This document shows positions 33,193 through 64,000 of a stretch of DNA of 64,000 bases, piece by piece. A model generated the notes under the pieces. It was not told the DNA's origin and did not search any database. It worked only from the letters and a program-made list of their open reading frames with translations. The stretch comes from an uncultured Chromatiales bacterium (GTDB lineage Bacteria > Pseudomonadota > Gammaproteobacteria > SZUA-140), in the NCBI GenBank assembly GCA_964437335.1, contig CAYTGL010000001.1:2946-66945 (forward strand), read 5' to 3'. Within the stretch, counting starts at the first letter, position 1. The number at the start of each line of letters is the position of its first letter. The position numbers and the translations under genes are program-made.

Positions 33193-33318
33193 TTATTTGC
33201 GCCAGAATTCCGGCATCAACAGGACGAGGAGCGTGAAGATCTCGAGACGCCCAAGCAGCACCGCGAGCGCGCACGGCCACTTCGCGGCGGCATTAATGTC
33301 ATGGAATGTCACCGCAAC
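33193..33318 (-). pseudogene. remnant of trkH 3' end (last ~35 codons)
   Basis: FHDINAAAKWPCALAVLLGRLEIFTLLVLLMPEFWRK matches the C-terminus of the full TrkH at 44196-45641 (FHDINPTAKWLCTLAMLLGRLEIFTLLVLLTPEFWRK). Upstream part absent. Confidence 0.65.
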
Positions 33319-33364
33319 CGCGCCGAGGTGACCTATCCTCCGCCTAGGTAGCCAGAATGAGTGA

Positions 33365-34207: not shown

Positions 34208-34216
34208 TCTGTAAAC

Positions 34217-38500: not shown

Positions 38501-38550
38501 AATGCAATACATTTCTCCAGATACCGGGTTTATGTATTTATCGATACATA

Positions 38551-38597
38551 TGTGACCGTTCTGGCTGATCAAAATCAGCCAGAACGGTCACACAGGA
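38551..38597 (-). terminator. 18-bp perfect hairpin downstream of TBDR3
   Basis: GTGACCGTTCTGGCTGAT-caaa-ATCAGCCAGAACGGTCAC lies ~20 nt after the TBDR3 stop. Overlaps the alternative TTG start region of the SBP gene. Confidence 0.5.
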
Positions 38598-38614
38598 TCT
38601 ACAGCGACTCAGAA

Positions 38615-40627: not shown

Positions 40628-40786
40628 TATTCTCCCCTCACAGTTATTTTCCTGTAACTGTTAATCGTGAACGAGCGTTCAATTTCCCGCATGACTCATT
40701 CGCCCCCTTGTATGGTTATTGGTATCTGTCAATCAGTTCATCAGGCTCAGCTTCCTATCTAATAAGAGATTGAGTCAGAGGTGGCG

Positions 40787-40818
40787 GGCCACCCGGCGGG
40801 GGAGAGGATCCGCCGGAT
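40787..40818. repeat. palindromic element CCACCCGGCGG-N10-CCGCCGGATGG (copy 2)
   Basis: Near-identical to 30516-30547. Lies between DUF4198-2 stop and TBDR3 start. Confidence 0.5.
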
Positions 40819-40882
40819 GGCTTACGCCGGGCACTGCATTTATTTCGTTCAGACCTACAGGGTCATCAACGAAATTCTCCTG

Positions 40883-41584
40883 TTAACGGAAGAAGGTGAG
40901 ATTGGTCTCCAGCGCTAGTGTGTCAGCGTCAGGGTGATTTTTCAGGGTTTCCTTATGCCTTGCCAGGATGTACTGAAAACTGTCCGCTGATATCGGTAGC
41001 GAGGCCTTGCCGTCGGCATCGGTCTTGTGCAGCGTTTCGTCGCCAAGTATCTCGATCTCTGCGCCTGAGAGAGGCTTTGATTTGTACAGCAACTGTACGG
41101 GCAGAAGTTCACCGGGCTTCAATGCAAGAGGGTCCTTGAGCGGCAGGATTTCAAAGTCCGCGCCGACCGGCTTGCCTGCTGTCTGACTCCAGGAGACGAT
41201 CATCTTGTTGAATTTCATGGAATGCATTGATGCCTTGTAATTTGGCACTTCCCGCTTTGAAACATTGAAATATTTTTCATTCTGGTCTTCGGTCCAAAAC
41301 CCATTGTCGAAATCCGTGATGACCAGTGACAACCCGCCAGGAAATTCAGCGAACAGCTGTTCATTGTGCACATGAGTCTTGATCTTGCCTCTGGCACCGT
41401 CTTTGTTGATGCCGGTTACTGATTTTGCTTTAGCCGGTTCATAGGGTTCGGGTTCGCCGGGATGGCCATAAACAAGCCGATAATTTTCCCCGTCGGGCAC
41501 GAACCAGACATCATGTGCCGATGCAGTGGCGGCAAATACGATCGATAAGGCTGTCAGTATGAGAAATATTCGTAATATTTTCAT
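40883..41584 (-). CDS. DUF4198-domain periplasmic protein, copy 2
   Basis: 233 aa, signal peptide, HDVWFVPDGENYRLVYGHPGEPEPYEP. Paralog of 29730-30437. Confidence 0.8.
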   Translation of the reverse strand: MKILRIFLILTALSIVFAATASAHDVWFVPDGENYRLVYGHPGEPEPYEPAKAKSVTGINKDGARGKIKTHVHNEQLFAEFPGGLSLVITDFDNGFWTEDQNEKYFNVSKREVPNYKASMHSMKFNKMIVSWSQTAGKPVGADFEILPLKDPLALKPGELLPVQLLYKSKPLSGAEIEILGDETLHKTDADGKASLPISADSFQYILARHKETLKNHPDADTLALETNLTFFR

Positions 41585-41659
41585 GGTTCTCCTCGGTGTG
41601 ATTATATGTGCTGGGCGGCCGTGTCAACGATGTGACCGCCCGGTAACCTGCTGGACCAA

Positions 41660-43679
41660 CTACATCGATATCGAAATACCCATCATGAAATTGATTGGTG
41701 GGCGCGGTGTATAGAGGTCTTCGAAAGCTGCTTCGGAGTACACCTCATCCGTCAGGTTGTTGATATCGAGAAACCAGCGCGCATACTTGCCCTGATCAAG
41801 CGGCACGGCGTAGAACACGCTGGCGTCTAGGACATCGAAGCCGTCATATTTGACGGTATTCGCAGCGTTGAGATAGGAAGATCCAATGGAGCGCCAGCGC
41901 AGACTACCGCCCCAGCCGGACGGAGGTGCGTAGTTGAGGCTGATCGTTACAATATGATCCGCTGATCCCTCGATCTCATTACCAACCAGTGTAGCATCCG
42001 GATTGCTTAGGATCTCGCTATCCGGCAGCGCAAAGATTGCGGAGACGCTGAAGTTGTTTATTGCCTGCGGGAAGTACCGGACCTCACCCTCCAGACCGCT
42101 GCGACGTGTTTTGCCGACATTGCGGAACTGCGATGATCCCGGCGGATCCTCGAGAATCTCGTCGGAGCTGTCAAGAATGTAGTAGGCGAGATCCAGGTAC
42201 CATTGCGGGCTCGGCGTGCCGTTGATGCCCACTTCGTATTGCCAGTACTGGATTGTGTCAACATTGATGGTAGGATCGTATTTCGACTCGCCATCGGGTA
42301 ATCCGAAACCGTCGGCGATGCTGCCACGCAACTCCCAGTTTTCATGGAACGCCGAACGCACACCGAGCTTCGGGCTGATGTGGTCATAACTGTTATCTTC
42401 GTTGAAAGGCGTTCCGCTGGGATCCCGGTTGAGATAGGAACCATTGTAGTTGTCATAGCGAACCCCAAGGGTCGGACGGAATAGCGGACTGATATCCATA
42501 TCGATCTGTCCGTAGATCGATGCGGTTTGGCTGTCGAAGACTCGATCTTCGATCTGGTCGATGCGCACCCGATTGCTGGTGTCCCAGCGCAGCCAGTCGG
42601 TCTCTTCGGTGTAATATTCGAAGCCCACTACCCAGCTGCTGGGAATATTGAAAAGGGTCCGGGAACCATTCAGGCTGCCGCCGGTGGCAATGGCATTGCG
42701 GCCGTAAAAGCGTTCGGTCTGGCCGCCGGGGTCATAGCCGAACTTGGCGAAGCGAGTAAAGTCATTGCTGGTGCCATAGAGAAACAACAGCATTCTGAGA
42801 TCATCGTCAACGTCATAAAACCAGTCAAGACGCTGGTTATAATACTGCTTGTGCCCGCCGTCGTTCTCGGCATTGATGGCCTGCTGTCTGCGGACGCTTT
42901 CGTCCCCGCTCTTGAACTGTTCTTCAGGAATATAGCCCGGGGCATCCCACTGACCGCCATAACCACGCATCGTCAGTACCACTTCGGAACGGTCACTGAC
43001 ATCGTAGCCGAGCCGCAGCGAGGCATTGGTTTTAGTGAAGCGCGAGTTCTCGCGCCAGCCTTCGCTGTCATAGGCCTGGAGCGCCAAGTTGGCCTTGAAT
43101 GGACCGATCTCTCTGCCCATGGCTGCCTGGGCATCAAAGGTTTTGTACATGCCGCCGGAGAGATAGGCGTCGTTATAGTTACCGCCCTTGCGGGTCGTGA
43201 AGGCCAGCACACCGCCGCGGGCATAGTTGCCGTACAGTGCCGACCGGACCTCTGTAGACAGTCAGGGAATCGATCTCGAGCGGTATGATGCTGTTGGTGT
43301 CGGCATATCCGTCGGCATGGGATTCGCCTTCGTTGAGACTGATGCCATCGAGGGTGATTGCGGCGTCACTGCCGTGTCCGCCTGTCTGGAACCCTCGTAT
43401 CGTAAACTGATCGGCGACGCCACCTTGCTGGTAGACGCCCAGATCAAGCCCCGGGACTTCTTCAACCAAGCGTAGCGATTGATCCCAGGAACGGGAACGG
43501 ATCACGTCTGAACCTATGGTGTTGACACTGAACGAGCGATCGGCCTCCCTCATGCCTTCACCCTTTACGGTAATTTTATCGAGATCGACGTTGTCCGCCA
43601 GTGCGGCGCCTCCCGCTGCTGCCCCGATTCCGTATAAGATCGCGGCTAAGACGCTTCTCCTCACTAGGTGATTAATCAT
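41660..43679 (-). pseudogene. TonB-dependent receptor (TBDR2) disrupted by a frameshift near 43235
   Basis: N-terminal 166-aa ORF (43179-43679) and C-terminal 516-aa ORF (41660-43210) are collinear with TBDR1. They are out of frame at ...VYRGPVG|ALYGNYARGGVLAFTTRKGG, where TBDR1 has the in-frame motif GPVSPLYGNFARGG. Confidence 0.7.
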
Positions 43680-45906: not shown

Positions 45907-45935
45907 TGGGGTCAGGCCCCTGCGGGGTCTGACCC
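45907..45935. repeat. REP-like palindrome GGGGTCAGGCCCC-tgc-GGGGTCTGACCCC
   Basis: Imperfect inverted repeat in the trkH-ffs intergenic region. Second copy at 60788-60815. Confidence 0.5.
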
Positions 45936-54308: not shown

Positions 54309-55485
54309 GCCACGCCCCTCCTGTATCGCGACCGGTCGTCCGGTCTTGTGATTGTGCCAGCGCCCACCGCACATGTTCGTGTACCAATGGGGAAGGATCA
54401 TCGACGCGCTTTCTCAATGTGTCGGCGATGATGACAGCCTGCGGCGCCTGCGCGGTGCGCAGGGCATTACCGAGCGCGACTGCGATGTTGCGCAGCCAGC
54501 CTTCGTGACCGACGCGGCGAATCGCCGAGCCTTCGGTGTATTTTAAGAACTCCGCTTCATTCCACGCAAATAAAACGCCGAGGGATGCCGCGTCCAGGCC
54601 GTGGCGCGGCCTGAAATCGCCATTGGGGCTTAATTGCGCGAAACGGTTCCACGGGCACACGAGTTGGCAGTCGTCACAGCCGAAGATTCGGTTGCCGATC
54701 AGCGGGCGCAGGTCCTCCGGGATCGACCCGCGCAGCTCGATCGTCAGATAGGAGATGCAGCGCCGTGCGTCGAGCCGCCAAGGTCCGACGATCGCCCGGG
54801 TCGGGCAGATCTCGATGCACGCCTGGCAGGTACCGCAGCGCGCCTCCGCCGGCGCGTCGATCGGCAACGGCAGGTCGGTGTAGATCTCGCCGAGAAAGAA
54901 CCACGAGCCGGCCTCGGTCGACAGCAGATTCGTATGCTTGCCGATCCAGCCCAGCCCGGCCTTTTCCGCGAGCGCCTTTTCGAGCACTGGCGCACTATCG
55001 GCGAAGACGCGATAGCCGAAAGACCCGACGGATGTTGAAATGCGGTTCGCAAGGCCCTGCAGGCGACTCCTGACTACCTTGTGATAATCGCGCCCGAGGG
55101 CGTATCGGGAGATATAGGCCGACATCGGATCGGCGAGCACGGCCTCGGGCTCGGCGCCGCCGGGCGGCAGGTAGTTCATCCGCGCGGAGATCACGCGCAC
55201 AGTGCCGGGTTGCAGCTCTGCCGGACGGCTGCGCCGGGTCCCGTGGCGCGCCATCCAGGCCATCTCGCCATGAAATCCGGCCTCGAGCCAGTGCTGCAAA
55301 TGGGATTCATGGGCGTCGAGCCGGGTATCGGTGATGCCGATCCGGTCAAATCCGCAGGCGAGGCCCCAGGCCTTGATATCCGCTGCGAGGCGGGTGAAAT
55401 CTACTGGTTTGAAATCGTCCGGGTCGGAATCCTCCGGCGGCTCGCGGTGTTTATGGTTCTGTGGCGTCGACATTATCGCTATCAT
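54295..55485 (-). CDS. queG: epoxyqueuosine reductase QueG
   Basis: Two 4Fe-4S ferredoxin motifs (CGTCQACIEICP, CDDCQLVCPWN). Conserved QueG N-terminal domain. Confidence 0.9.
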   Translation of the reverse strand: MIAIMSTPQNHKHREPPEDSDPDDFKPVDFTRLAADIKAWGLACGFDRIGITDTRLDAHESHLQHWLEAGFHGEMAWMARHGTRRSRPAELQPGTVRVISARMNYLPPGGAEPEAVLADPMSAYISRYALGRDYHKVVRSRLQGLANRISTSVGSFGYRVFADSAPVLEKALAEKAGLGWIGKHTNLLSTEAGSWFFLGEIYTDLPLPIDAPAEARCGTCQACIEICPTRAIVGPWRLDARRCISYLTIELRGSIPEDLRPLIGNRIFGCDDCQLVCPWNRFAQLSPNGDFRPRHGLDAASLGVLFAWNEAEFLKYTEGSAIRRVGHEGWLRNIAVALGNALRTAQAPQAVIIADTLRKRVDDPSPLVHEHVRWALAQSQDRTTGRDTGGAWHEQL

Positions 55486-55492
55486 AGCGCGG

Positions 55493-56989
55493 ATGCATCC
55501 GCTACCCCACCACCTCTATCGCGCCGCGCAGGTCAGGGAACTCGACCGCCTTGCGATCGATGAATATGGGATACCTGCAACGGCCCTGATGGAACGGGCC
55601 GGCGCCGCGGCCTTCGGCGTGCTGCAGTGGCGCTGGCCGGACGTACGGCGCATCGCGGTGTTATGCGGGACCGGCAATAATGGCGGCGACGGTTATGCGC
55701 TCGCGCGCCATGCCCGCGCCGCGGGTTATGCCGTTGATGTCTTTCACCTCGGCACACCGCAGGACCCGCACGGCGCCGCGGCCCAGACCGCTGAAGTGCT
55801 GGTCTCGAACGGGCCTCCCGTGGCGGCCTGGGAAGGGCAGCCGCTGGAAGAGTACGAATTGATCGTCGATGCGCTGTTCGGCACCGGTCTCGATCGTGAG
55901 GTCACCGGCGTACCACGCAAGGCCATCCTCGCGATCAATGCCAGCGGTGCGAAGGTGCTGGCGCTCGATGTGCCGTCCGGTCTTGATGCGGATACCGGCC
56001 ATGTGCTGGGTGCGGCGATTCGCGCCGATGTGACCGTGACCTTCATCGGACTGAAGCAGGGGCAGTTTACCGCGGCGGGCCTCGATTGCTGCGGTGCCGT
56101 CCATTACAGCAGCCTCGATGTACCGGTTGAAATCTTTTCGCGCGTGACGCCGGCGGCAATCCGCTATGCGCTCGACAGCCTCGAGGAACTGCTCGCGCCG
56201 CGGCCCAGGGACAGCCACAAGGGACACTTTGGCCATGTGCTCGTGATCGGCGGCGAGCGTGGCATGAGCGGCGCGGTCCAGCTCGCGGCTGAGGCGGCGT
56301 TGCGCAGCGGGGCAGGGCTGGTCAGCATCGCAACGCGCGCCGAGCATGCCGCATTGCACACTATCCGGTGCCCGGAGATCATGTCACACGGTATCGAGGG
56401 CGGCGCCGGCCTGCGCGGATTGATCGAGCGCGCGTCCGTCATCGCGATCGGCCCCGGTCTCGGCCGCTCGGCCTGGGCGCACGGCCTGCTCGGTGTGGTG
56501 CTCGAATCACGGCGGCTGCCGATCATCGTGGATGCCGATGCGCTGAATCTGCTGGCCGCAGAACCTCAGCGGCGCGACGACTGGATACTGACACCGCATC
56601 CGGGTGAGGCGGGGCACCTGCTCGGCGCGACAGCGGAGGAAGTTCAGCGCGATCGCTTCACGGCCGTCGAAACCCTGCAGAAGCGTTATGGCGGTGTCGT
56701 GGTACTGAAAGGCGCCGGCACCCTGGTTTGTTCCGGCGATCGGGTCATCGGCCTGTGCGCTGCGGGAAATCCGGGCATGGCCGCCGGCGGCATGGGGGAC
56801 GTGCTGACCGGCATCATCGCAGGGTTGGTCGCCCAGCACATCAGCCTTGCCGATGCGGCTTGTCTCGGCGCCATGCTGCACGCGGAAGCCGGCGACCGGG
56901 CCGCCGCAACCAGCGGGCAGCGCGGCCTGATCGCCAGCGATCTGCTCGCCAGACTGCCAAGACTGATCAATCCGCAAGCGCGCCGCTGA
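55493..56989 (+). CDS. nnr: bifunctional NAD(P)H-hydrate repair enzyme Nnr (YjeF)
   Basis: N-terminal YjeF epimerase domain (GTGNNGGDG). C-terminal carbohydrate-kinase-like dehydratase (GPGLG, GMGDVLTG). Start at the internal Met MHPLPHH. Confidence 0.9.
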   Translation: MHPLPHHLYRAAQVRELDRLAIDEYGIPATALMERAGAAAFGVLQWRWPDVRRIAVLCGTGNNGGDGYALARHARAAGYAVDVFHLGTPQDPHGAAAQTAEVLVSNGPPVAAWEGQPLEEYELIVDALFGTGLDREVTGVPRKAILAINASGAKVLALDVPSGLDADTGHVLGAAIRADVTVTFIGLKQGQFTAAGLDCCGAVHYSSLDVPVEIFSRVTPAAIRYALDSLEELLAPRPRDSHKGHFGHVLVIGGERGMSGAVQLAAEAALRSGAGLVSIATRAEHAALHTIRCPEIMSHGIEGGAGLRGLIERASVIAIGPGLGRSAWAHGLLGVVLESRRLPIIVDADALNLLAAEPQRRDDWILTPHPGEAGHLLGATAEEVQRDRFTAVETLQKRYGGVVVLKGAGTLVCSGDRVIGLCAAGNPGMAAGGMGDVLTGIIAGLVAQHISLADAACLGAMLHAEAGDRAAATSGQRGLIASDLLARLPRLINPQARR

Positions 56990-57444: not shown

Positions 57445-57571
57445 ACTTCAATGGCTTAGGATGCTTATATCAGGTCGCGTACAAAAACTTCATGGTATCT
57501 ATCTTAAATACTTGCAATCACACAGGGTTTATATTAAAAAATCCGGGTCGCGGATTAGCAGAGAAAACAGA

Positions 57572-58888
57572 ATGAAGAAGCTAATCGCCTCTGTGGCGGG
57601 ATTAGTCGGATGCCTCCTCGCTCTCGCATCTGTTGCGCAGGCCGCTGATGTCGGGGTGCTCGGCGTGCGCATGTGGCCCGCGCCGGACAGCAGCCGGATC
57701 GTGTTCGACGTCAGCGGTCCGGTGCGCTACAAGGTCTTCCGCCTCGACAATCCCGATCGGGTCGTCGTCGATTTCAGCAACGCATCGCTCAAGACCCGCC
57801 TGCCTTCGCCGTCCCAGCAGGATCGCATTACGCAGCGCGTCCGCCATGCGGTGCGCGGCCAGGATGATTTACGGATCGTACTCGACGTCAGTCAGCCGAT
57901 CGATGTCAAGAGTTTTCTGCTCGAACCCAATGAACACTACGGACACCGGCTCGTCCTCGACCTGGTTAAACCGCAGGCCGCGCGCGATCCGGTCGTGACG
58001 CACAACGTGCAGGCGACGCCGGATACGGATACCCCGCGCGAGATCGTGATCGCGATCGATGCCGGCCACGGCGGCGAGGATCCCGGCGCGCGCGGTTACG
58101 CGGGGAACTATGAAAAGGATCTGGTGCTCGCAATCGCCCGTCGGCTCCAGTCTCTCGTTGCGAACGAGCCGGGTATGCGCCCGGTGATGATTCGCGATGG
58201 TGATTATTTCATCAGCCTGCGCAATCGAACACTGAAGGCGCGCGCGGCGAAGGCGGACCTGTTCGTGTCGATCCACGCCGACGCGTTCCATGATCAGCGA
58301 GTCAGAGGCTCGTCGCTGTACGTGCTGTCGCAGGGCGGCGCGAGCAACGAGGCGGCGCGCTGGCTCGCCGAGCGGGAGAATGCCTCGGACCTGATCGGTG
58401 GCGTCAGTCTCGACAACAAGGACAATGTGCTCAAATCGGTGCTGCTCGACCTGTCGCAATCCGCAACGATCGAGGCGAGTTTCGAGGCCGGGGATGCGAT
58501 CCTCCGTCATATGAGCCCGCTCGGGCGGGTGCACAAGCCGCGCGTGCAGCAGGCGGGTTTTGCGGTGCTGAAGTCGCCGGACATCCCGTCAGTGCTGATC
58601 GAGACCGCGTTCATCTCGAATCCCGAGGACGAGAGCAAGCTGCGCAACGACCGTCACCAGCAGGCCGTCGCCGAGGCGATATTCCGGGGGTTAAAGGACT
58701 ATTTCAACAAGCATCCGCCGGCCGGCACGCTGTATGCGGTGAACCGCCGTCATATCATCTCGCGGGGCGATACGCTGTCGCAACTGGCGCAGCAGTATCG
58801 CGTCAGCGTCGATAACCTGCGCATCGCGAACAACCTGAAAAACGATGTCTTGCGCATCGGCCAGGTCCTGCAGATCCCGCCGGGTTAG
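57572..58888 (+). CDS. amiB: N-acetylmuramoyl-L-alanine amidase with AMIN and C-terminal LysM domains
   Basis: Signal peptide MKKLIASVAGLVGCLLALA. AMIN domain, Amidase_3 core (IDAGHGGEDPGA ... SIHADA), C-terminal LysM (YRVSVDNLRIANNL). Symbol by synteny (nnr-tsaE-ami-mutL). Confidence 0.85.
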   Translation: MKKLIASVAGLVGCLLALASVAQAADVGVLGVRMWPAPDSSRIVFDVSGPVRYKVFRLDNPDRVVVDFSNASLKTRLPSPSQQDRITQRVRHAVRGQDDLRIVLDVSQPIDVKSFLLEPNEHYGHRLVLDLVKPQAARDPVVTHNVQATPDTDTPREIVIAIDAGHGGEDPGARGYAGNYEKDLVLAIARRLQSLVANEPGMRPVMIRDGDYFISLRNRTLKARAAKADLFVSIHADAFHDQRVRGSSLYVLSQGGASNEAARWLAERENASDLIGGVSLDNKDNVLKSVLLDLSQSATIEASFEAGDAILRHMSPLGRVHKPRVQQAGFAVLKSPDIPSVLIETAFISNPEDESKLRNDRHQQAVAEAIFRGLKDYFNKHPPAGTLYAVNRRHIISRGDTLSQLAQQYRVSVDNLRIANNLKNDVLRIGQVLQIPPG

Positions 58889-58977: not shown

Positions 58978-60780
58978 ATGCGCATCCACCGCCTGTCAGA
59001 CCAGCTCGCCAACCAGATCGCCGCCGGCGAGGTCGTCGAACGGCCGGCCTCGGTCGTCAAGGAACTGCTCGAAAACAGCCTCGATGCCGGCGCGACCGAG
59101 ATCGCGATCGATATCGAACAGGGCGGCCTGCGCCTGATCCGCGTCCGCGACGATGGCTGCGGCATTCATCACGACGACCTCGGTCTCGCCCTGAGCCGGC
59201 ACGCGACCAGCAAGCTCAGGACGGCCGAAGAACTCGGCAGCATCCGCACGCTCGGCTTCCGCGGCGAGGCGCTGCCGAGCATCGTATCGGTGGCGCGGCT
59301 CGTGCTGACATCGCGCACAAGCGAGGATCCACATGCGTGGCGCACCGAGGCCGGGCTCGACGGCGCGGTCGGCGCGCCGGTTCCGGCCGCGCATCCGCCC
59401 GGCACGACGGTCGAAGTCCGCGACCTGTTTTTCAACATTCCGGCGCGGCGCAAGTTCCTGCGCACCGAGCGCACCGAGTTCGGCCATATCGAAGAGATCT
59501 TCCGGCGTATCGCGCTCAGCCGTTTCGATGCCGGTTTCCTGCTCACGCACAATCAGCGCGCGATCCACCAGCTCCGGCCGCTTCCCGCGCAGCGGGAACG
59601 CATACAGCGCATCGCGGACCTGTGTGGCGAGTTGTTCGCGGCGAATTGCCTGGAGATCAGACGGGAAGCGGGCGATTTGCGCTTGTTCGGCTGGATCGGA
59701 CTGCCAACCGCGTCACGCGCCCAGACCGATCTCCAGTACTTCCATGTCAATGGGCGTGTCGTGCGTGACCGCCTGGTCGCACACGCGATCCGCCGCGCCT
59801 ACCAGGACGTGCTCTATCATGGACGGCATCCGGCCTATGTCCTGTATCTTGAGATCCCGCCCGGCGAGGTCGATGTCAACGTACATCCGACCAAGCACGA
59901 GGTGCGCTTCCGGGAGAGCCGGCGCATCCATGATTTCCTGTTCCGCACGATCCATGACGCGCTGGCGCGCAGTGGACCGGGCGCGGAAAGTATCGGCGAC
60001 CCTGTCCGCATGCCGATCGTCAGTCCGGGCGGGTGTGACGAGTCGGCTCAGTCGAGTCCGGGAGTTCAGCGGGCAGGTGGTATTCAGCACGCGATGCCGC
60101 TCCCGCGTAATGACAGGGGCGTCGACTCGAGATTGCTCTACGCGACCTTGCAGGGCGCCGTCGCGAACGCCGTGCATGAAGACGCCGGAGACGACGTGCA
60201 CCCGCTCGGGCGTGCGCTCGCACAGATCCACGGCGTCTATATTCTTGCCGAAAACAGGCACGGACTGGTCCTGGTCGACATGCACGCGGCACACGAACGC
60301 ATCGTCTACGAACGCATGAAACTCAGCCACCGCGATGGCGGAATCCGTTCACAACCGCTGCTCGTACCGCTGACGATTCGCATGAGCCGCCGCGAGGTCG
60401 CGCTGGTCGAACAGCACCAGACGGTATTCGACGCGATCGGTCTCGAGGTCGCGTGCCTGTCCGACGACACCGTTGCGGTGCGCGCGGTGCCGAATCTGCT
60501 GTGCGAGTCCGATGTCGATACCCTGGTCAGGGACATCATCGCCGATCTCGGTGCCGACGGGGACAGCAGCCGCGCCGATGAACGGATCGACGAGATCCTC
60601 GCGACGATGGCCTGTCACGGTTCGGTACGGGCAAATCGCCGTCTCACGCTGCCGGAAATGGATGCGCTGCTTCGTGACATGGAGCGCACCGAACGCAGCG
60701 GGCAATGCAATCACGGCCGCCCGACCTGGGTGCAGCTCGACATGCAGGCGCTGGATCGGTTGTTTTTGCGCGGGCGATAA
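58978..60780 (+). CDS. mutL: DNA mismatch repair protein MutL
   Basis: GHKL ATPase N-terminal (ANQIAAGEVVERPASVVKELLENSLDAGA), C-terminal dimerisation domain. Confidence 0.95.
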   Translation: MRIHRLSDQLANQIAAGEVVERPASVVKELLENSLDAGATEIAIDIEQGGLRLIRVRDDGCGIHHDDLGLALSRHATSKLRTAEELGSIRTLGFRGEALPSIVSVARLVLTSRTSEDPHAWRTEAGLDGAVGAPVPAAHPPGTTVEVRDLFFNIPARRKFLRTERTEFGHIEEIFRRIALSRFDAGFLLTHNQRAIHQLRPLPAQRERIQRIADLCGELFAANCLEIRREAGDLRLFGWIGLPTASRAQTDLQYFHVNGRVVRDRLVAHAIRRAYQDVLYHGRHPAYVLYLEIPPGEVDVNVHPTKHEVRFRESRRIHDFLFRTIHDALARSGPGAESIGDPVRMPIVSPGGCDESAQSSPGVQRAGGIQHAMPLPRNDRGVDSRLLYATLQGAVANAVHEDAGDDVHPLGRALAQIHGVYILAENRHGLVLVDMHAAHERIVYERMKLSHRDGGIRSQPLLVPLTIRMSRREVALVEQHQTVFDAIGLEVACLSDDTVAVRAVPNLLCESDVDTLVRDIIADLGADGDSSRADERIDEILATMACHGSVRANRRLTLPEMDALLRDMERTERSGQCNHGRPTWVQLDMQALDRLFLRGR

Positions 60781-60787
60781 TCCTTAA

Positions 60788-60815
60788 GGGTCAGACCCCT
60801 ACGGGGTCTGACCCC
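60788..60815. repeat. REP-like palindrome GGGTCAGACCCC-tac-GGGGTCTGACCC immediately after the mutL stop
   Basis: Perfect inverted repeat. Same family as 45907-45935. Followed by an AT-rich spacer. Confidence 0.55.
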
Positions 60816-61027
60816 ATGGATCAACGACTCTGGTGCCTTGATCCTTTTCTAATTTTTTATATCAATTAATTCATGTAGATAATTAGATAATACTGAGTAG
60901 CTCACTTCACAAGTTAATCATTATGTTGTAATCGTAATATATATGTGATAACGTGTGCCTGCGAGTTTGCGAATGGATTGCTGGACAAGGATGTCCTCTC
61001 TTTTCCGTCCTTGCCGGGTATGCGTAG

Positions 61028-61486
61028 ATGAGTTGCATCACTGAGATTACCGCTCTGCATGAGGTCCCGGGACGGGTCCGGTTTTTTGTTCCGCAGATCA
61101 AGTCGAGTCCGGCGAATGCTGCGACTCTCAAGGATTACCTGAAAAAGATTCCTGGCATCTTTCACGCGAAGACCTGCCCTCACTTGGGCACCCTGATCGT
61201 ATATTTCGATACTGCTGAGGTCTCCAGGGCATCGTTGCATGACCACATTCACGATTGCGAGCTTCCCGAAATGATTGTTGGCCCAACCCATGCGCCGGCA
61301 CCAATACAAGTCAGGCACCGCATCTCAGTCAAGAGAACCCAGTCCGTCAATACAAGAACAAATTCCGGCTTGTTAATAGCACTGGTGAAGCAGGGCCTGC
61401 TCGCAAGCGGTGGAAATTACAGCGGTAGTCTCGGTCTCGGCATGACCGCACTCAGAACGCTGCTCGCCGTAGCTCGTGCCCACTGA
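61028..61486 (+). CDS. hypothetical protein with N-terminal HMA-like domain lacking CxxC (motif H-x2-PGR-V-R-F)
   Basis: 152 aa. ALHEVPGRVRFFVPQIKSS...LKKIPGIFHAKTCPHLGTLIVYFD. Paralogous to the N-termini of ORFs at 62687 and 63287. Confidence 0.5.
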   Translation: MSCITEITALHEVPGRVRFFVPQIKSSPANAATLKDYLKKIPGIFHAKTCPHLGTLIVYFDTAEVSRASLHDHIHDCELPEMIVGPTHAPAPIQVRHRISVKRTQSVNTRTNSGLLIALVKQGLLASGGNYSGSLGLGMTALRTLLAVARAH

Positions 61487-61517
61487 GAGTATCAGAAAGA
61501 TATCAAAGAAAGAGCTG

Positions 61518-61679
61518 TTGCGGCCTGATGAGGCCGCCGAGTTGCTCAATGTCAGTCGCTGGACCATCTACCGCTGGGTCAAGAAAGGCGAGCTTGAGGC
61601 GACCAAGATCAGTTCCGGCAGCCTGCGGATCTTCCGCCATTCAATCCAGAAAATAATCGACGACAAGCGCACCGGATAA
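61518..61679 (+). CDS. excisionase/AlpA-type (HTH_17) small DNA-binding protein
   Basis: LLRPDEAAELLNVSRWTIYRWVKKGELEATKI. TTG start preceded by AAAGAAAGAG; the ORF track's alternative GTG start is at 61476. Confidence 0.6.
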   Translation: MRPDEAAELLNVSRWTIYRWVKKGELEATKISSGSLRIFRHSIQKIIDDKRTG

Positions 61680-61826
61680 ACCTCGTGCCCGGCAGAATCT
61701 TAATGCCAGGTGCCTCCTGACTTTTTACAGGAATTCGAACGTGGCGACATTAGTTGTAGCATCCGTTGGCAGGCATTGGCAGATGCTATTGTTTCCCGGC
61801 TGGCAAAGGACTGATACTCAATAACC

Positions 61827-62141
61827 GTGAAGAAGGTGGTTGTATTCAGGGAATTCCATTTATCGACAAAGGAATTCTCCACCCGTCTTGACCGCTACCT
61901 GGTGCAGGCGGACCAGACATTCAAGACGTTTGATGGCGCAGTGAAATATGTCTGGAACGACCGCCGTGATCGCGTATCAATTCATTCGAGCCTGTTCACC
62001 GCAGATATCATGCATCTGGCCAGCAAGGGAGTACTGGTCGTGGTCATCCTGTCAGTAATCACGATCCCATTCAGGCGGCAGATCGAGAATCGAATCGATC
62101 ATGCACTGACCGCAATATTTGAAACCAAAGGAGAAGTTTGA
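61827..62141 (+). CDS. hypothetical protein (one predicted TM helix)
   Basis: 104 aa. First of four overlapping-stop/start ORFs (61827-63229). No family recognised. Confidence 0.4.
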   Translation: MKKVVVFREFHLSTKEFSTRLDRYLVQADQTFKTFDGAVKYVWNDRRDRVSIHSSLFTADIMHLASKGVLVVVILSVITIPFRRQIENRIDHALTAIFETKGEV

Positions 62142-62428
62142 ACATGTTAATTCATCCTGCATTCTGGATCGGCGCCGCCGTGGTTGTGGCTTATGAATTC
62201 TGGCCACAGATCAGCAAGGCAACGCGTCCGACGGGCGTCAAGTTACTTAAGGCCGGTATCGCGACCGGAGAAAATATCAGGAAATCGGTCAGTAGGGCCA
62301 AGGAAGGACTTGATGACCTGATGGCCGAGGTGAAGAGCGAGGAAGCGCACGAGCATCATGATGAAGTCCCGGAGCACAAGAGCATCACGAAGAAGCACGG
62401 CAAGGTGAACAAACATGACGCCAACTAG
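62138..62428 (+). CDS. hypothetical small protein with His/Glu-rich C-terminus
   Basis: 96 aa. N-terminal TM-like segment. Tail EEAHEHHDEVPEHKSITKKHGKVNKHDAN suggests metal binding. Confidence 0.4.
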   Translation: MNMLIHPAFWIGAAVVVAYEFWPQISKATRPTGVKLLKAGIATGENIRKSVSRAKEGLDDLMAEVKSEEAHEHHDEVPEHKSITKKHGKVNKHDAN

Positions 62429-62690
62429 CGGCATGTCTCAAATGGTGGGCGGCATGTTCGGGTCGGCAAACGGCGGCCTCGTCGTCGGGGTGTTCGTTCC
62501 GCTGCTGACCGGGGCGATGATTGCCAGCGCAGTAATATCGCTGATGCGTCACGACCATTCGCGCCTGCTCACCACGCTGAGAAATCCGGATGAAACGGCC
62601 GCGGGGAGGACGCTTGAAGAACTCCTTGCGGAAAAGGAACACCTTGAAGACCTGATCGCGGAAGCCGCGGCCAAGCAAAGCAAGAAATGA
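62415..62690 (+). CDS. hypothetical small membrane protein
   Basis: 91 aa. Gly-rich TM segment (GGLVVGVFVPLLTGAMIASAVISL). Start and stop overlap the flanking genes. Confidence 0.4.
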   Translation: MTPTSGMSQMVGGMFGSANGGLVVGVFVPLLTGAMIASAVISLMRHDHSRLLTTLRNPDETAAGRTLEELLAEKEHLEDLIAEAAAKQSKK

Positions 62691-63229
62691 TACGGGCGGC
62701 AGTACTGCATCGACTCCCGGGGCGCCTTCGTATCCGCGGAGATGCGCTATGCGGTCAGGATGCCGCGCTGCGCGCTATCGAGCAGGAACTGTCGGCCTTT
62801 GCCGGCGTTATGAAAGTGACTGGCAACAATGTCACGGGCAGCGTACTGATCGAATATGATGCCGATGTCCTGTCGGATGGACAATTGCTCGTTCGCTTGC
62901 GACAAACTCTCGATTTCACCACTGAAGAATCCGCCACAGATAGCAGCGATCCCGTGGGCGACGCTCCGGTGAGCGATTCACCAAAGGTCGCTGCTGTGAT
63001 CCAGTCGCCGTTCGATCGCGTTGACGAAATGCTGAAAGAGCTTAGCGATGGCTTTCTCGACCTGCGTTATTCGGTTCCGGTGGTCTTTATCGTGCTCGGC
63101 ACCTGGAAGGTATTGATGTCGTCGTCACCACCCGGCATCCCCTGGTACATGTATTACTGGATGTCCTATCGCCTGTTCGCGAATAACCGTACCTCGGAGA
63201 AGCTGAGTAGTTACCAGAAACCAGTTTGA
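62687..63229 (+). CDS. hypothetical protein with N-terminal HMA-like domain lacking CxxC (H-x2-PGR-L-R-I)
   Basis: 180 aa. VLHRLPGRLRIRGDALCG...MKVTGNNVTGSVLIEYD. C-terminal hydrophobic/aromatic segment. Confidence 0.5.
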   Translation: MIRAAVLHRLPGRLRIRGDALCGQDAALRAIEQELSAFAGVMKVTGNNVTGSVLIEYDADVLSDGQLLVRLRQTLDFTTEESATDSSDPVGDAPVSDSPKVAAVIQSPFDRVDEMLKELSDGFLDLRYSVPVVFIVLGTWKVLMSSSPPGIPWYMYYWMSYRLFANNRTSEKLSSYQKPV

Positions 63230-63286
63230 TCTGATTATCCACCCGGCGTTGCCGACGCGAGCCGGCACCCAAGACAGGGGACCCAG

Positions 63287-64000
63287 ATGTCATCGCGAGC
63301 AATACATGATCTATCCGATCCATTGATAAAGGACGCAGGCAAATCGGCCTCTCCCCAGCCGCGATCCCGGCGAGATCTTGCCTCCTGGCCGAAGCATCGG
63401 CTGCAATATCGCGTCCTCCACTTCACCCCAGGACGAATACGATTTTTCATCCCGCTGATCGAAGATAATCACGAGCTCTCCGCGTGCTTCGAACACGCAT
63501 ATCACGGCGTCGACGGTGTTGAACACGTCAGTGCGAATCCGGTCACCGGGACACTGCTGATCCAGTACAACCCCGCCACGACGAACCTGGCGTTTGTCGT
63601 CCATCATCTGCTTGTCGCGCAGGACCAGGACGACTTCAACGCGGCGGCGGGTGAGAGCTACTGCGCCGGACCGATCTGCGTCCACTGTCACAGCGCCGCC
63701 CATGCGGAGCACGAACCGTTCGACCTGAAGCGCAAGTTCATCGGCGTTATCGTGACCGGCGTGATTCTCGGCATCGTCGGCTTTCAGGGCTATCTCGCGC
63801 GCTTCATCCCCGGTCTCGCGAAGCTGCCCGGCCTGTGGATCGCGTCGGGCACGGCGCTGGTCGCGGGCATCCCGGTATTCCGCGAAGGCTGGGAAACGAT
63901 GCGCGAGGAAAAACGCCTGAACCTCGATTTCCTCGTTGCGATGGCCGGCATTGCGTCGATCGCCGCCCGCCAGGGCGTCGCGGCCCTCGAGGTCGTCTGG
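63287..64000 (+). CDS. heavy-metal-translocating P1B-type ATPase, N-terminal part (runs off window end)
   Basis: N-terminal HMA-like domain (VLHFTPGRIRFFIPLIED...TGTLLIQYNP); Cys/His cluster CAGPICVHCHSAAH; first TM helices and a conserved cytoplasmic-loop start (FREGWETMREEKRLNLDFLVAMAGIA). Confidence 0.8.
   Translation, partial: MSSRAIHDLSDPLIKDAGKSASPQPRSRRDLASWPKHRLQYRVLHFTPGRIRFFIPLIEDNHELSACFEHAYHGVDGVEHVSANPVTGTLLIQYNPATTNLAFVVHHLLVAQDQDDFNAAAGESYCAGPICVHCHSAAHAEHEPFDLKRKFIGVIVTGVILGIVGFQGYLARFIPGLAKLPGLWIASGTALVAGIPVFREGWETMREEKRLNLDFLVAMAGIASIAARQGVAALEVVW

What the first reader, a model, noticed from the sequence alone, without database searches (positions are those of the whole stretch)
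60781..64000. Synteny break after mutL: AT-rich spacer then a metal-handling cluster with three paralogous CxxC-less HMA-like domains, an excisionase-type HTH, small His-rich/membrane proteins and a P1B-ATPase
The conserved nnr-tsaE-amiB-mutL run ends (miaA-hfq would normally follow). A REP-like hairpin and a ~200-bp AT-rich stretch precede lower-GC genes. Three separate ORFs begin with a ferredoxin-like HMA-type domain in which the CxxC metal loop is replaced by a conserved H-x2-PGR-[VLI]-R-[FI] motif: VPGRVRFF, LPGRLRIR, TPGRIRFF. One of these is fused to a heavy-metal P-type ATPase that also has a CAGPICVHCH cluster. An AlpA/Xis-type HTH and four translationally coupled tiny ORFs, one with a His/Glu-rich tail, sit between them. 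This looks like a horizontally acquired, uncharacterised metal efflux and chaperone module with a novel metal-binding-domain variant.
Basis: partly seen in the sequence, partly recalled or inferred. Interest (0 to 1): 0.65.

Follow-up and report, generated by a model that had tools for sequence, protein, structure and literature searches.

The report
Rare ferrosome-like metal pump gene cluster
Downstream of mutL lies a rare but conserved operon built around a metal-pumping ATPase related to the pumps of iron-storage "ferrosomes" and mycobacterial "effluxosomes"; its unusual HMA-like domains are the already described CoBaHMA family, and its neighbours in other genomes point to nickel or cobalt rather than iron.

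Summary
After nnr-tsaE-amiB-mutL come a hairpin, an AT-rich spacer and seven tightly packed genes. Three of them start with a CxxC-less HMA-like domain.

That domain is not new. It is Pfam HMA_2 (PF19991), also called CoBaHMA, and matches the "R-rich motif" of ferrosome proteins.

The same gene order recurs in Nitrospirota and other MAGs: CoBaHMA protein, HTH_17, PHA_gran_rgn-like protein, PacL/DUF5132-like protein, GxxxG protein with an acidic helix, CoBaHMA membrane protein, P1B-ATPase, then usually a CbiO-like ABC ATPase. So this is one conserved functional unit, and the HTH is a cluster component, not an excisionase.

The ATPase forms its own clade (TM4 CPC, TM6 H-V-x-N-S). It sits in a superclade with FezB (P1B-6) and CtpC. 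Two accessory proteins match proteins of a genuine fez cluster, and one matches a PacL-like partner of a CtpC-like pump.

Neighbours elsewhere are NikR, CooT, CbiM/Q/O, DUF4198, CobN-like proteins and TonB systems, which points to Ni/Co.

Best reading: a fez/PacL-type pump platform for a non-iron metal. Whether it exports the metal or stores it in a compartment is open. It is a new variant of a known kind. Horizontal acquisition is plausible but unproven.

The parts
60788..60814 (.). REP-like hairpin GGGTCAGACCCC-TAC-GGGGTCTGACCC just after the mutL stop codon. Probably the mutL terminator and a repeat element of the host genome.
   Evidence: 12-nt arms, 100% complementary, 3-nt loop. A second near-identical copy lies at window 45924.
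60815..61027 (+). AT-rich spacer holding the presumed promoter and operator of the cluster. It contains a block shared with the closest relative (ATATGTTG.A.T.GTAATA ... GGACA[AG]GGATGTCC).
   Evidence: GC is 0.42 at 60750-61049. One sigma-70-like site lies at 60856-60883, which is no more than chance would give. Aligned with L008. No Fur, Zur or NikR consensus match stands out.
61028..61486 (+). orfA, 152 aa. N-terminal CoBaHMA/HMA_2 domain (HEVPGRVRFF), conserved N-terminal M-[GS]-C and H-[HD]-C, and a Gly-rich hydrophobic C-terminal part.
   Evidence: Pfam HMA_2 E=7e-10, 39.4 bits against a cut-off of 30. Orthologues at 34-42% identity in L002, L003 and L006; further copies in L008, L011 and L016. 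Alignment.
61476..61679 (+). Small HTH_17 (excisionase/MerR-type) DNA-binding protein, 67 aa. Overlaps orfA by 11 nt. Presumed dedicated regulator of the cluster.
   Evidence: HTH_17 E=4e-13 and TIGR01764 E=6e-12. 55-66% identical copies at the same position in L002, L003, L005 and L006; also present there in L008 and L011. The MamR match is far below cut-off (24.7 against 100 bits).
61827..62141 (+). orfC, 104 aa. A soluble alpha+beta protein distantly related to the PHA_gran_rgn family. Its hydrophobic stretch 64-82 is modelled as beta strands, not a TM helix.
   Evidence: All 8 orthologues hit PF09650, best E=7e-7. AF2 mean pLDDT 80 with b-a-b4-a topology. Weak Foldseek hits to Bet v1/START/TBP-like folds and PA4090 (2jpi). 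Only 6 further related representatives (E<=2.5e-7) among 1.84 billion.
62144..62428 (+). orfD, 94 aa from the ATG at 62144 (the ORF opens at TTG 62138). It has an N-terminal TM helix, an amphipathic helix ending in DDLMAEVKSEE, and a His/Glu-rich tail (AHEHHDEVPEH). It is a PacL/DUF5132-like scaffold.
   Evidence: DUF5132 hit in 8 of 8 orthologues, DUF1490 (PacL) in 3 of 8, DUF6110 in 1 of 8, all below cut-off. hhalign gives 95.6% probability (E=1e-8) to a DUF5132 protein encoded next to a CtpC-like ATPase in L014. The His-rich tail is present only in L001, L008 and L012.
62415..62690 (+). orfE, 91 aa. Gly-rich N-terminus, a TM helix with GxxxG/GxxxA, and an invariant acidic helix LEELLAEKEHLEDLIAEAAA. 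It resembles the small GxxxG proteins of fez clusters.
   Evidence: Alignment. hhalign gives 96.7% probability (E=4e-10) to the 85-aa protein of a genuine FezB cluster, L013. Distant paralogy with orfD at 71% probability. No Pfam family.
62687..63229 (+). orfF, 180 aa. CoBaHMA domain (LHRLPGRLRIR), a linker and a C-terminal membrane hairpin (DLRYSVPV...IPWYMYYWMSYRLF). It is the counterpart of the HMA_2 protein encoded directly upstream of FezB.
   Evidence: HMA_2 E=2e-16 over the whole profile. AF2 residues 1-80 have pLDDT 78-92 with b0-b1-a1-b2-b3-a2-b4 topology. Top Foldseek hits are ATP7B/RAN1/CopZ/ZiaA HMA domains and KipI-N. hhalign gives 98.7% probability (E=4e-16), full length, to L013:6390-6965.
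63287..64000 (+). The first 238 codons of a 767-aa P1B-type ATPase, cut off by the end of the window. This part holds the CoBaHMA domain (LHFTPGRIRFF), a Cys/His linker (CAGPICVHCH) and the N-terminal TM helices. In the full protein TM4 is VVSCPCAAAIATP, TM5 is QNYGFSMGMN and TM6 is LHVANSLGVILNS.
   Evidence: The full sequence comes from L001, which is identical to the window over 3295 nt. TIGR01525 scores 538 bits against a cut-off of 346. HMA_2 E=8e-12. Motifs and clade assignment.

Best explanation
The region is the first seven genes of a conserved eight-gene operon. The eighth gene is a CbiO-like ABC ATPase. In this genome and its closest relative a His-rich CDF transporter follows.

Core pump:
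- The core is a P1B-6-like ATPase. It belongs to a distinct lineage in the superclade that also holds the ferrosome pump FezB and the mycobacterial pump CtpC.
- It moves a divalent transition metal out of the cytoplasm across a membrane. Ni2+ or Co2+ is the most likely substrate.

Accessory proteins:
- The three CxxC-less HMA-like domains are CoBaHMA domains. They have an HMA fold with an extra beta0 strand carrying a His, and an Arg ladder in beta1.
- I infer that they are not CopZ-type chaperones. They would be basic-patch docking or regulatory modules.
- The conserved acidic Glu/Ala helices of the two single-pass proteins would bind these patches. These are orfD (PacL/DUF5132-like) and orfE (FezA-like, GxxxG).
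- That binding would gather the pump, orfA and orfF into a membrane platform. PacL1 does this with the N-terminus of CtpC.
- Several Cys/His features would capture or sense metal: the His/Glu tail of orfD, the CVHC/His linker of the pump, the N-terminal Cys and HxC of orfA, and the His- or Cys-rich tails of the ABC ATPase and CDF.
- The HTH_17 protein would be the cluster's own regulator.

Shown: gene content and conservation, domain identity and fold, ATPase clade and TM motifs, homology of orfD, orfE and orfF to PacL-like and fez-cluster proteins, and the Ni/Co-type neighbourhood.

Inferred: the substrate, the docking mechanism, the regulator role, and whether the metal ends up in the periplasm or in an intracellular compartment.
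For: Conservation:
- The cluster keeps the same gene order in L002, L003/4, L006, L008-10, L011 and L016. L005 and L012 are variants.

ATPase placement:
- The ATPase clade has 100% bootstrap support and lies in a 98% superclade with FezB and CtpC-like pumps.
- Its motifs are [SA]CPC and HVxNS. CtpC-like pumps have CPC and HN; FezB has DYSCG and HNxxT.
- Boudehen 2022 (PMC9374683) defines CtpC as "P1B6-like". That paper shows that PacL1 binds CtpC residues 1-85 through its Glu/Ala repeats.

Domains and accessory proteins:
- CoBaHMA identity and fold: with literature.
- orfD matches a DUF5132 partner of a CtpC-like pump.
- orfE and orfF match proteins of a genuine fez cluster.

Ni/Co context:
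- nikR is divergent from the cluster in L012.
- CooT is present in L002 and L005, with a weak hit in L012.
- CbiM-CbiQ-CbiO and DUF4198 lie beside the cluster in L006 and L016.
- CobN-like proteins with TonB/ExbBD and a receptor occur in L002 and L003.
- The cluster's ABC ATPase is CbiO/ECF-like and 67% identical to a genuine CbiO.
- The ABC ATPases and the CDF end in His- or Cys-rich tails.
Against: - No experiment exists on any member, so the substrate is inferred from neighbours only.
- The neighbours are not uniform. L003 and L017 have ZnuA/ABC-3, which suggests Zn or Mn. L008 has a FecI/FecR-type system.
- NikR is adjacent in only one of eight lineages.
- No NikR, Fur or Zur operator could be identified in the window's spacer.
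- The matches of orfD to DUF5132 and DUF1490, and of orfC to PHA_gran_rgn, are below Pfam's cut-offs.
- The His tail of orfD and the CVHC linker are lineage-specific, so they are not core to the mechanism.
- The role of an orphan CbiO-like ATPase without CbiM or CbiQ in this genome is unexplained.
Confidence: 0.6

Rival explanations
1. The cluster builds a ferrosome-like, lipid-bounded intracellular compartment. The pump would load the metal (Ni/Co) for storage rather than expelling it. The GxxxG protein (orfE), the CoBaHMA membrane proteins and the granule-protein-like orfC would shape or coat the compartment.
For: - Three components are homologous to fez-cluster proteins: the pump, orfF and orfE.
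- All orfC orthologues hit PHA_gran_rgn.
- The cluster sits next to uptake systems and NikR, just as fez clusters sit next to FeoAB, Fur and DtxR (Grant & Komeili).
- The same parts list (CoBaHMA, DUF5132, Gly-zipper proteins) surrounds ccyA, a marker of intracellular carbonate biomineralisation.
Against: - The defining P1B-6 TM motifs are absent.
- No Ni/Co-storing organelle is known.
- In two lineages a CDF efflux pump follows the cluster.
- PacL-like partners also serve plain efflux in mycobacteria.
- There is no imaging or expression data.
Confidence: 0.27
2. It is a plain PacL-CtpC-type efflux ("effluxosome") module for Zn2+, Mn2+ or Cd2+. It would have been acquired as a metal-resistance determinant.
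For: - CPC in TM4 as in CtpC, 39% identity to CtpC-like pumps, and JGI's label "P-type ATPase C".
- A PacL-like orfD with a His-rich tail like the Zn-binding DLHDHDH of PacL1.
- A CDF pump next door.
- ZnuA/ABC-3 beside the cluster in L003 and L017.
Against: - TM6 has HV, not HN.
- The module has five more conserved genes than the two-gene pacL-ctpC pair.
- The neighbours are mostly uptake and Ni/Co genes, not resistance genes.
- No metal-resistance regulator of the ArsR, MerR or CzcR type is adjacent.
Confidence: 0.2
3. It is a true iron ferrosome (fez) cluster whose pump has merely diverged in its TM motifs.
For: - Homology of orfE, orfF and the pump to fez proteins.
- TonB-dependent receptors and a FecI/FecR system as neighbours in L001 and L008.
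- AT-rich GATAAT-type repeats in the spacers.
Against: - D[YF]SC[AG] and HNxxT are both replaced in every member of the clade.
- No FeoAB, Fur or DtxR is adjacent in any of the eight lineages, whereas the genuine fez locus L013 has all three.
- No Fur box stands out in the spacer.
Confidence: 0.08
4. The segment is cargo of an integrative mobile element, and the HTH is its excisionase.
For: - A match to the HTH_17/TIGR01764 "excisionase family" domain.
- A break in the usual gene order after mutL, and lower GC in the small genes.
Against: - There is no integrase, tRNA or flanking direct repeat in the window or in 12.5 kb downstream.
- The HTH gene keeps the same internal position, at 55-66% identity, in loci from other phyla.
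- The hairpin is a repeat of the host genome.
Confidence: 0.04

Closest known systems
Ferrosome (fez) gene clusters: FezB P1B-6-ATPase with FezA/C/D/E/G (Grant & Komeili, bioRxiv 10.1101/2020.01.10.902569)
   Same: - The pump lies in the same superclade (98% bootstrap) and carries an N-terminal R-rich/CoBaHMA domain.
- A full-length HMA_2 membrane protein is encoded immediately upstream of the pump (orfF matches L013:6390-6965 at 98.7% hhalign probability).
- A small GxxxG protein carries the LEEL.AEKEHLEDLIAE helix (orfE matches L013:10056-10313 at 96.7%).
- The cluster is embedded among uptake genes for a metal.
   Different: - The pump lacks the defining D[YF]SC[AG] and HNxxT motifs and has CPC and HVxNS instead.
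- There are extra conserved genes: HTH_17, the PHA_gran_rgn-like orfC, the PacL-like orfD, a second CoBaHMA protein (orfA) and a CbiO-like ABC ATPase.
- The neighbours are Ni/Co-type, not FeoAB/Fur/DtxR.
- No organelle has been observed.
PacL1-CtpC metal efflux platforms ("effluxosomes") of Mycobacterium tuberculosis (Boudehen 2022, PMC9374683; PMC13043812)
   Same: - A "P1B6-like" pump with CPC in TM4 and an N-terminal R-rich domain.
- A single-pass partner with a Glu/Ala-rich helix and an optional C-terminal His motif (orfD).
- PacL1 binds the pump's N-terminal 85 residues through its Glu/Ala repeats, which is the docking model proposed here.
   Different: - PacL is DUF1490 and restricted to Actinobacteria. 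orfD is closer to DUF5132, and only below threshold.
- TM6 is HV, not HN.
- The mycobacterial module has two genes; this one has eight.
- The proposed substrate is Ni/Co, not Zn.
CoBaHMA domain (Pfam HMA_2, PF19991): calcyanin N-terminus and the ccyA neighbourhood in Microcystis (PMC8890360; bioRxiv 10.1101/2024.07.07.602159; Gaschignard 2024, Proteins, not held)
   Same: - The same domain: an HMA fold with a beta0 strand carrying His, basic residues in beta1/beta2, and no CxxC.
- The Microcystis ccyA neighbourhood combines CoBaHMA proteins (one with a helical-hairpin C-terminus), two DUF5132 proteins (TM helix plus a long helix) and Gly-zipper proteins. That is the same parts list as here.
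   Different: - There is no calcyanin or GlyZip3 domain here.
- The core here is a heavy-metal P1B ATPase rather than Ca/carbonate machinery.
- The organisms are different.
Classical HMA metallochaperones and metal-binding domains (CopZ/Atx1, CopA/ZntA N-termini; PF00403)
   Same: [quoted passage not shown] Foldseek's top hits are ATP7B, RAN1, CopZ and ZiaA domains.
   Different: - No CxxC metal loop.
- An extra beta0 strand and a conserved Arg ladder.
- The PF00403 score is below cut-off (19.4 against 24.8 bits).
- Metal binding by this domain has not been shown.

Membership tests
CoBaHMA / Pfam HMA_2 (PF19991) | Scores above Pfam's gathering cut-off for HMA_2 | tested here: met
   orfA 39.4, orfF 60.8 and the ATPase N-terminus 45.8 bits, against a cut-off of 30.
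CoBaHMA / Pfam HMA_2 (PF19991) | Ferredoxin-like HMA fold with an additional N-terminal strand beta0 carrying a conserved His | tested here: met
   In the orfF AF2 model, residues 1-80 have pLDDT 78-92. The strands and helices are E2-10 (His8), E13-18, H25-36, E41-47, E52-57, H64-75 and E77-80. Foldseek's top PDB hits are HMA domains and KipI-N 2kwa. Only orfF was modelled; the other two domains were aligned to it.
CoBaHMA / Pfam HMA_2 (PF19991) | Conserved basic residues in beta1/beta2 and no CxxC loop | tested here: met
   PGRVRF, PGRLRIR and PGRIRF lie in beta1, with K/H in beta2. No CxxC follows beta1.
Classical HMA (PF00403) chaperone or metal-binding domain | CxxC metal-binding loop and a PF00403 score above cut-off | tested here: not met
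   No CxxC is present. The only PF00403 hit scores 19.4 bits against a cut-off of 24.8, on orfF.
P1B-type heavy-metal ATPase | TIGR01525 above cut-off, with DKTGT and a (C/S)PC-type TM4 | tested here: met
   538 bits against a cut-off of 346. CLDKTGTLT and VVSCPCAAAIATP are present.
FezB / P1B-6 ATPase (ferrosome pump) | TM4 D[Y/F]SC[A/G] and TM6 HNxxT | tested here: not met
   The query clade has [SA]CPCAAA and LHVxNS in all members. Real P1B-6 hits (P0034 onward) have DYSCG and HNxxT.
FezB / P1B-6 ATPase (ferrosome pump) | Falls inside the FezB clade in a phylogeny | tested here: not met
   In an NJ tree with 50 bootstrap replicates it forms its own clade (100%). That clade lies in a 98% superclade with FezB and CtpC-like pumps.
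fez (ferrosome) gene cluster | R-rich/CoBaHMA motif on the pump and on accessory proteins (FezC-like) | tested here: met
   Three CoBaHMA domains. orfF matches the HMA_2 protein upstream of FezB in L013 at 98.7% hhalign probability.
fez (ferrosome) gene cluster | One or more small hydrophobic GxxxG proteins (FezA-like) | tested here: met
   orfE has GLVVG and GAMIA in its TM helix. hhalign gives 96.7% probability to the 85-aa GxxxG protein of L013.
fez (ferrosome) gene cluster | Genomic association with iron homeostasis genes (FeoAB, Fur/DtxR) | tested here: not met
   None in eight lineages. The neighbours are NikR, CooT, CbiMQO, DUF4198, CobN-like proteins, ZnuA and TonB systems. The genuine fez locus L013 has FeoA, FeoB and DtxR.
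fez (ferrosome) gene cluster | Directs formation of membrane-bounded metal granules | not testable with these tools
   Needs microscopy and genetics.
PacL-CtpC effluxosome module | "P1B6-like" pump: CPC in TM4 plus HN in TM6 | tested here: not met
   CPC is present, but TM6 is H-V/I, not H-N, in every clade member. Identity to CtpC-like pumps is 39%.
PacL-CtpC effluxosome module | Partner protein of family DUF1490 (PacL) | tested here: inconclusive
   Among orfD orthologues, DUF1490 hits 3 of 8 (best E=5e-4), DUF5132 hits 8 of 8 (best E=1e-3) and DUF6110 hits 1 of 8, all below cut-off. hhalign gives 95.6% probability to a bona fide DUF5132 protein next to a CtpC-like pump.
PacL-CtpC effluxosome module | Partner architecture: N-terminal TM helix, Glu/Ala-rich helix, variable tail, optional His motif | tested here: met
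   Seen in the orfD and orfE sequences and alignments.
PacL-CtpC effluxosome module | Zinc efflux and formation of membrane foci | not testable with these tools
   Needs experiments.
Excisionase (Xis/AlpA) of a mobile element | HTH_17/TIGR01764 domain together with an adjacent integrase and att sites | tested here: not met
   The domain is present. There is no integrase, tRNA or flanking repeat. The gene is conserved inside the cluster across phyla.

The most novel reading that the evidence does not exclude
The operon encodes a non-iron counterpart of the ferrosome: a membrane-bounded intracellular compartment loaded with nickel or cobalt. The loading pump would be a new P1B-6-like ATPase lineage (CPC / HVxNS). 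CoBaHMA proteins, PacL/FezA-like scaffolds and a granule-protein-like factor would organise it, and it would be co-regulated with Ni/Co uptake.
Probability: 0.25. Interest if true: 0.85.

Novelty: new variant of a known kind. Interest (0 to 1): 0.55.

Why it matters
Ferrosomes and mycobacterial effluxosomes are two recent discoveries. Both rest on the same poorly understood toolkit: P1B-6-type pumps, R-rich/CoBaHMA domains and small single-pass scaffold proteins.

This cluster is a third, rare lineage that combines parts of both. It adds new conserved parts: an HTH, a PHA_gran_rgn-like protein and a CbiO-like ATPase with a metal-binding tail. It is linked to nickel/cobalt genes rather than iron or zinc.

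- If it builds a storage compartment, metal-storing organelles would not be restricted to iron.
- If it is an efflux platform, PacL-type organisation would extend beyond Actinobacteria.

Either way it gives a compact, testable system for asking what CoBaHMA domains do. For annotation, the practical message is that "CxxC-less HMA" domains upstream of P1B pumps should be called CoBaHMA/HMA_2, not novel metal-binding domains.

Tried and rejected
- **Rfam.** A scan of eight loci found no known riboswitch, NiCo included, and nothing near threshold in the leaders.
- **Operator scans.** I scanned for Fur, Zur and NikR consensus sequences. Nothing in the window's spacer stands out against the rest of the window. 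The NikR-type palindrome in L012 rests on a consensus recalled from memory, so I give it little weight.
- **FezH.** I tried to test whether the pump is the "FezH" second ATPase of large fez clusters. Neither the preprint text nor its held supplement gives FezH motifs or sequences, so this remains untested.
- **Host organism.** It was not identified. Exact-sequence look-ups carry no names, and the species is not among the GTDB representatives hit. The closest cluster relative, L008, is not next to mutL.
- **miaA and hfq.** They are not in the window or in 12.5 kb downstream. I could not walk further because only window proteins can be looked up.
- **MamR.** Rejected for the HTH: 24.7 bits against a cut-off of 100.
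- **orfC as a membrane protein.** Rejected. The hydrophobic stretch is modelled as beta strands.
- **CAGPICVHCH as a core feature.** Rejected. It is absent from most of the clade.
- **CoBaHMA paper.** The primary paper (10.1002/prot.26668) is not held. Its content is cited only through papers that quote it.

Full report
**1. What is in the sequence**

The + strand carries nnr (55331-56989), tsaE, an AmiB/C-type amidase with LysM (57569-58888) and mutL (58978-60780). tsaE was recognised by motifs only.

Directly after the mutL stop lies a perfect hairpin at 60788-60814. GC then drops from about 0.65 to 0.42 over roughly 200 bp.

A second copy of the hairpin lies at 45924. It is therefore a host repeat or terminator, not an island boundary.

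Seven + strand genes follow:
- orfA, 61028-61486
- a 67-aa HTH, 61476-61679, overlapping orfA by 11 nt
- orfC, 61827-62141
- orfD, 62144-62428
- orfE, 62415-62690
- orfF, 62687-63229
- a P-type ATPase starting at 63287 and running off the window

Their junctions overlap or are 2 nt apart.

A Logan contig (L001) is identical to the window over the 3295 shared bases. It supplies the rest of the locus:
- the 767-aa ATPase
- a CbiO/ECF-like ABC ATPase with a His-rich tail
- a His-rich CDF transporter
- a DUF3016 protein
- two TonB-dependent receptors

No miaA or hfq is found in the window or in those 12.5 kb.

**2. The "CxxC-less HMA-like" domains**

All three N-terminal domains pass Pfam's threshold for HMA_2 (PF19991). 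They align with each other at 21-34% identity.

An AlphaFold2 model of orfF is confident for residues 1-80 (pLDDT 78-92). It shows b0-b1-a1-b2-b3-a2-b4 topology. The conserved His lies in beta0 and the R-x-R in beta1.

Foldseek's best PDB matches are HMA domains of ATP7B, RAN1, CopZ and ZiaA, plus KipI-N.

This is exactly the published CoBaHMA family: "Conserved Basic residues HMA", with an extra beta0 strand carrying His, basic residues in beta1/beta2 and no CxxC (PMC8890360).
- A preprint equates it with Pfam HMA_2 (10.1101/2024.07.07.602159).
- A later preprint reports that it is hypothesised to be regulatory and possibly to bind anionic lipids.
- It is also the "R-rich motif" that Grant & Komeili noted on FezB, FezC, FezH and CtpC.

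**3. The cluster is a conserved unit**

Homologues of the ATPase at 49% identity or more number only about 17 clusters among 5.8 billion proteins.

Looking up their contigs shows the same gene order: CoBaHMA protein, HTH_17, three small ORFs, CoBaHMA protein, ATPase. This holds in:
- a Nitrospirota MAG (L002)
- an uncultured Nitrospiraceae MAG (L006)
- L011 and L016
- a further lineage (L003/L004/L017)
- the closest relative (L008-L010, ATPase 79% identical)

L005 and L012 are variants.

A CbiO-like ABC ATPase sits directly after the pump in six of eight lineages, at 45-67% identity. In L003 a more divergent ABC ATPase precedes the cluster.

The unit is rare:
- 2 loci among representatives of 185,579 species
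- 4 loci among 241 million metagenome records
- only 6 further related orfC representatives (E<=2.5e-7) among 1.84 billion

**4. The pump**

It is a bona fide P1B ATPase (TIGR01525, 538 bits against a cut-off of 346).

Every member of its clade has these motifs:
- TM4: [SA]CPCAAAIATPTA
- TM5: QNYxYSMxxN
- TM6: LHVxNSLGVIxNS

The next relatives differ:
- CtpC-like pumps (39% identity) have ACPCAAGL and LHNxS[ST].
- FezB/P1B-6 pumps (33-37% identity) have DYSCG and HNxxT.

An NJ tree gives the clade 100% bootstrap support. It lies in a 98% superclade with FezB and CtpC-like pumps, apart from CopA, ZntA/CadA and the other groups.

Boudehen et al. call CtpC "P1B6-like" because it has CPC plus HN. 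This clade is a further variant, with CPC plus HV.

The CAGPICVHCH linker exists only in the three closest sequences, where the core CVHC is kept.

**5. The accessory proteins**

*orfF* aligns over its full length with the HMA_2 protein encoded directly upstream of FezB in a genuine fez locus (98.7% hhalign probability, E=4e-16). That locus, L013, has DYSCG/HNxxT and is flanked by FeoA, FeoB and DtxR.

*orfE* has a TM helix with GxxxG/GxxxA and an invariant acidic helix, LEEL.AEKEHLEDLIAEA. It matches the 85-aa GxxxG protein of the same fez locus (96.7%, E=4e-10).

*orfD* has a TM helix, an amphipathic helix ending in DLMAEA, and a variable tail.
- It hits DUF5132 in all eight orthologues, DUF1490 (PacL) in three and DUF6110 in one, all below threshold.
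- It matches a bona fide DUF5132 protein next to a CtpC-like pump in L014 (95.6%).
- Its tail is His/Glu-rich here and in L008, and His/Lys-rich in L012, but not in the other lineages.
- orfD and orfE are themselves distantly related (71% probability).

*orfC* orthologues all hit PHA_gran_rgn (best E=7e-7). Its model (pLDDT 80) is a soluble beta-alpha-beta4-alpha fold with weak similarity to Bet v1/START/TBP-like proteins.

*orfA* adds a conserved N-terminal M-[GS]-C and an H-[HD]-C motif. An N-terminal Cys is used for Ni binding by CooT; this comes from my own knowledge and was not tested.

*The HTH* is 55-66% identical across phyla in the scored loci and keeps its position. There is no integrase, tRNA or flanking repeat. 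It is a cluster component, presumably its regulator.

**6. Which metal**

No locus has Feo, Fur or DtxR. Instead the neighbours are:
- nikR, divergently adjacent in L012 (NikR_C E=6e-32)
- CooT in L002 and L005, with a weak hit in L012
- TonB-ExbB, a receptor and DUF4198 upstream, and DUF4198-CbiM-CbiQ-CbiO downstream, in L006 and L016
- CobN-like proteins with TonB systems in L002 and L003
- a cluster ABC ATPase of the CbiO type ending in His-rich or Cys-rich tails

This favours Ni/Co.

The counter-indications are ZnuA/ABC-3 in L003 and L017, a FecI/FecR system in L008, and my failure to find a convincing operator in the window's spacer. I put Ni/Co at roughly one in two, with Zn/Mn and Fe behind it.

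**7. How it most likely works**

Shown:
- a P1B-6-like pump
- three CoBaHMA domains
- two PacL/FezA-like single-pass proteins with conserved acidic helices
- conservation of all of these as one operon

Inferred from PacL1, whose Glu/Ala repeats bind CtpC residues 1-85 and stabilise it in membrane foci:
- The acidic helices of orfD and orfE dock on the basic patches of the CoBaHMA domains.
- This assembles the pump, orfA and orfF into a platform.
- The Cys/His tails collect or sense metal.

The destination of the metal is open. The fez homologies, the granule-protein-like orfC and the uptake-gene context, which parallels fez with Feo/Fur, argue for storage. The PacL analogy and the adjacent CDF argue for efflux.

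**8. Acquired or ancestral**

For acquisition:
- The same unit occurs in Nitrospirota.
- The closest relative has it beside an ECF sigma/FecR pair and receptors, not beside mutL.
- The small genes have a GC3 of 0.59-0.72, against about 0.76-0.79 for host genes.

Against, or neutral:
- The ATPase and CDF have host-like GC3 (0.79 and 0.77).
- There are no mobility genes.
- The host's relatives could not be examined.

The verdict is plausible but not shown.

**9. Novelty and score**

The domain, the pump superclade and the scaffold idea are all published. The specific eight-gene architecture, the CPC/HVxNS pump lineage and its Ni/Co-type context were not found in the searchable literature.

I rate it a new variant of a known kind, with interest 0.55. 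The most novel reading that the evidence does not exclude is a nickel/cobalt "ferrosome", at a probability of about 0.25.

Noticed in passing
L002:7560-7715, L006:5660-5830, L011:7595-7765 (also L016; partly L005:7560-7640): In the Nitrospirota versions the first gene is preceded by a highly conserved leader. It has two tandem terminator-like hairpins (GGCCATGAAGGTC...CATTCATGGCC-U run, then GAGACCATGGAGGTTTC...ACCTTTATGGTC-U run) just before the RBS. No Rfam family matches. The outer stem sequence CCATGAAGG/CTTCATGG is kept even in the distant L005. This may be a new attenuator or metal riboswitch. It is absent from the window.
   Followed up: partly
window 30568-43210 (minus strand): A strongly low-GC patch (0.45-0.51, against about 0.62 elsewhere). 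It carries a TonB-dependent receptor (38615-40627) followed by a Nik/Opp/Dpp-family ABC importer (SBP 36908-38572, permeases, two ATPases down to 33365). The best NCBIfam matches are nickel NikA-E and Opp, all below cut-off. Two more receptors lie at 30568-32700 and 41660-43210. Compositionally this is a much clearer foreign island than the finding itself, and it is again metal or nickel uptake.
   Followed up: partly
window 32784-32806 and 29483-29507: An AT-rich palindrome, ATAATATTATAACATAATAATTA (16 of 23 to a Zur-type consensus), lies just upstream of the receptor gene 30568-32700. A Fur-like GCGAATGATAATGATAATAATAGCG (14 of 19) lies near the DUF3450 gene. Both are possible metalloregulator sites. 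The consensus sequences were taken from memory.
   Followed up: no
window 45909-45935: A second copy of the mutL-terminal hairpin (GGGTCAGGCCCC-TGC-GGGGTCTGACCCC). This shows it is a REP-like repeat of the host genome.
   Followed up: partly
L001:5700-5865; L002:13290-13356; L006:11110-11175; L011:13140-13206; L003:7540-7604: The cluster-associated CbiO-like ABC ATPases all end in putative metal-binding tails. The proteobacterial-type ones are His-rich (HHHLHDHD...HPHDHHHEHPHEGEH). The Nitrospirota ones are Cys-rich (SACPRxGRCxxC). In this genome the ATPase has no CbiM or CbiQ partner nearby, and its role is unexplained.
   Followed up: partly
L012:6961-7720: This is a variant of the cluster without the HTH gene and without the ABC ATPase. 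Instead it has nikR divergently transcribed. The promoter holds a palindrome-like GTGTTAC-N15-GTAATAC (L012:7628-7656), a possible NikR operator.
   Followed up: partly
L005:7691-12598: A divergent variant. It has no orfA or orfF, two orfE-like genes, and a 54-aa ORF with a His-rich tail (HHHEHLHDKKHEHP). Its ATPase has a roughly 130-aa N-terminal extension that hits IF3_N.
   Followed up: no
window 61028-61040 and 61244-61258 (orfA residues 1-3 and 73-77): orfA orthologues conserve an N-terminal M-[GS]-C and a later H-[HD]-C. Most also have a C-x-H in beta2. These suggest a real metal site on this one CoBaHMA protein. The N-terminal Cys is reminiscent of Ni sites in CooT and NiSOD (from memory).
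   Followed up: no
L014:5675-8175: A CtpC-like pump (CPC/HN) from a metagenome contig is preceded by a DUF5132 protein that scores above Pfam's threshold. DUF5132 may therefore be another PacL-like partner family besides DUF1490 and DUF6110.
   Followed up: partly
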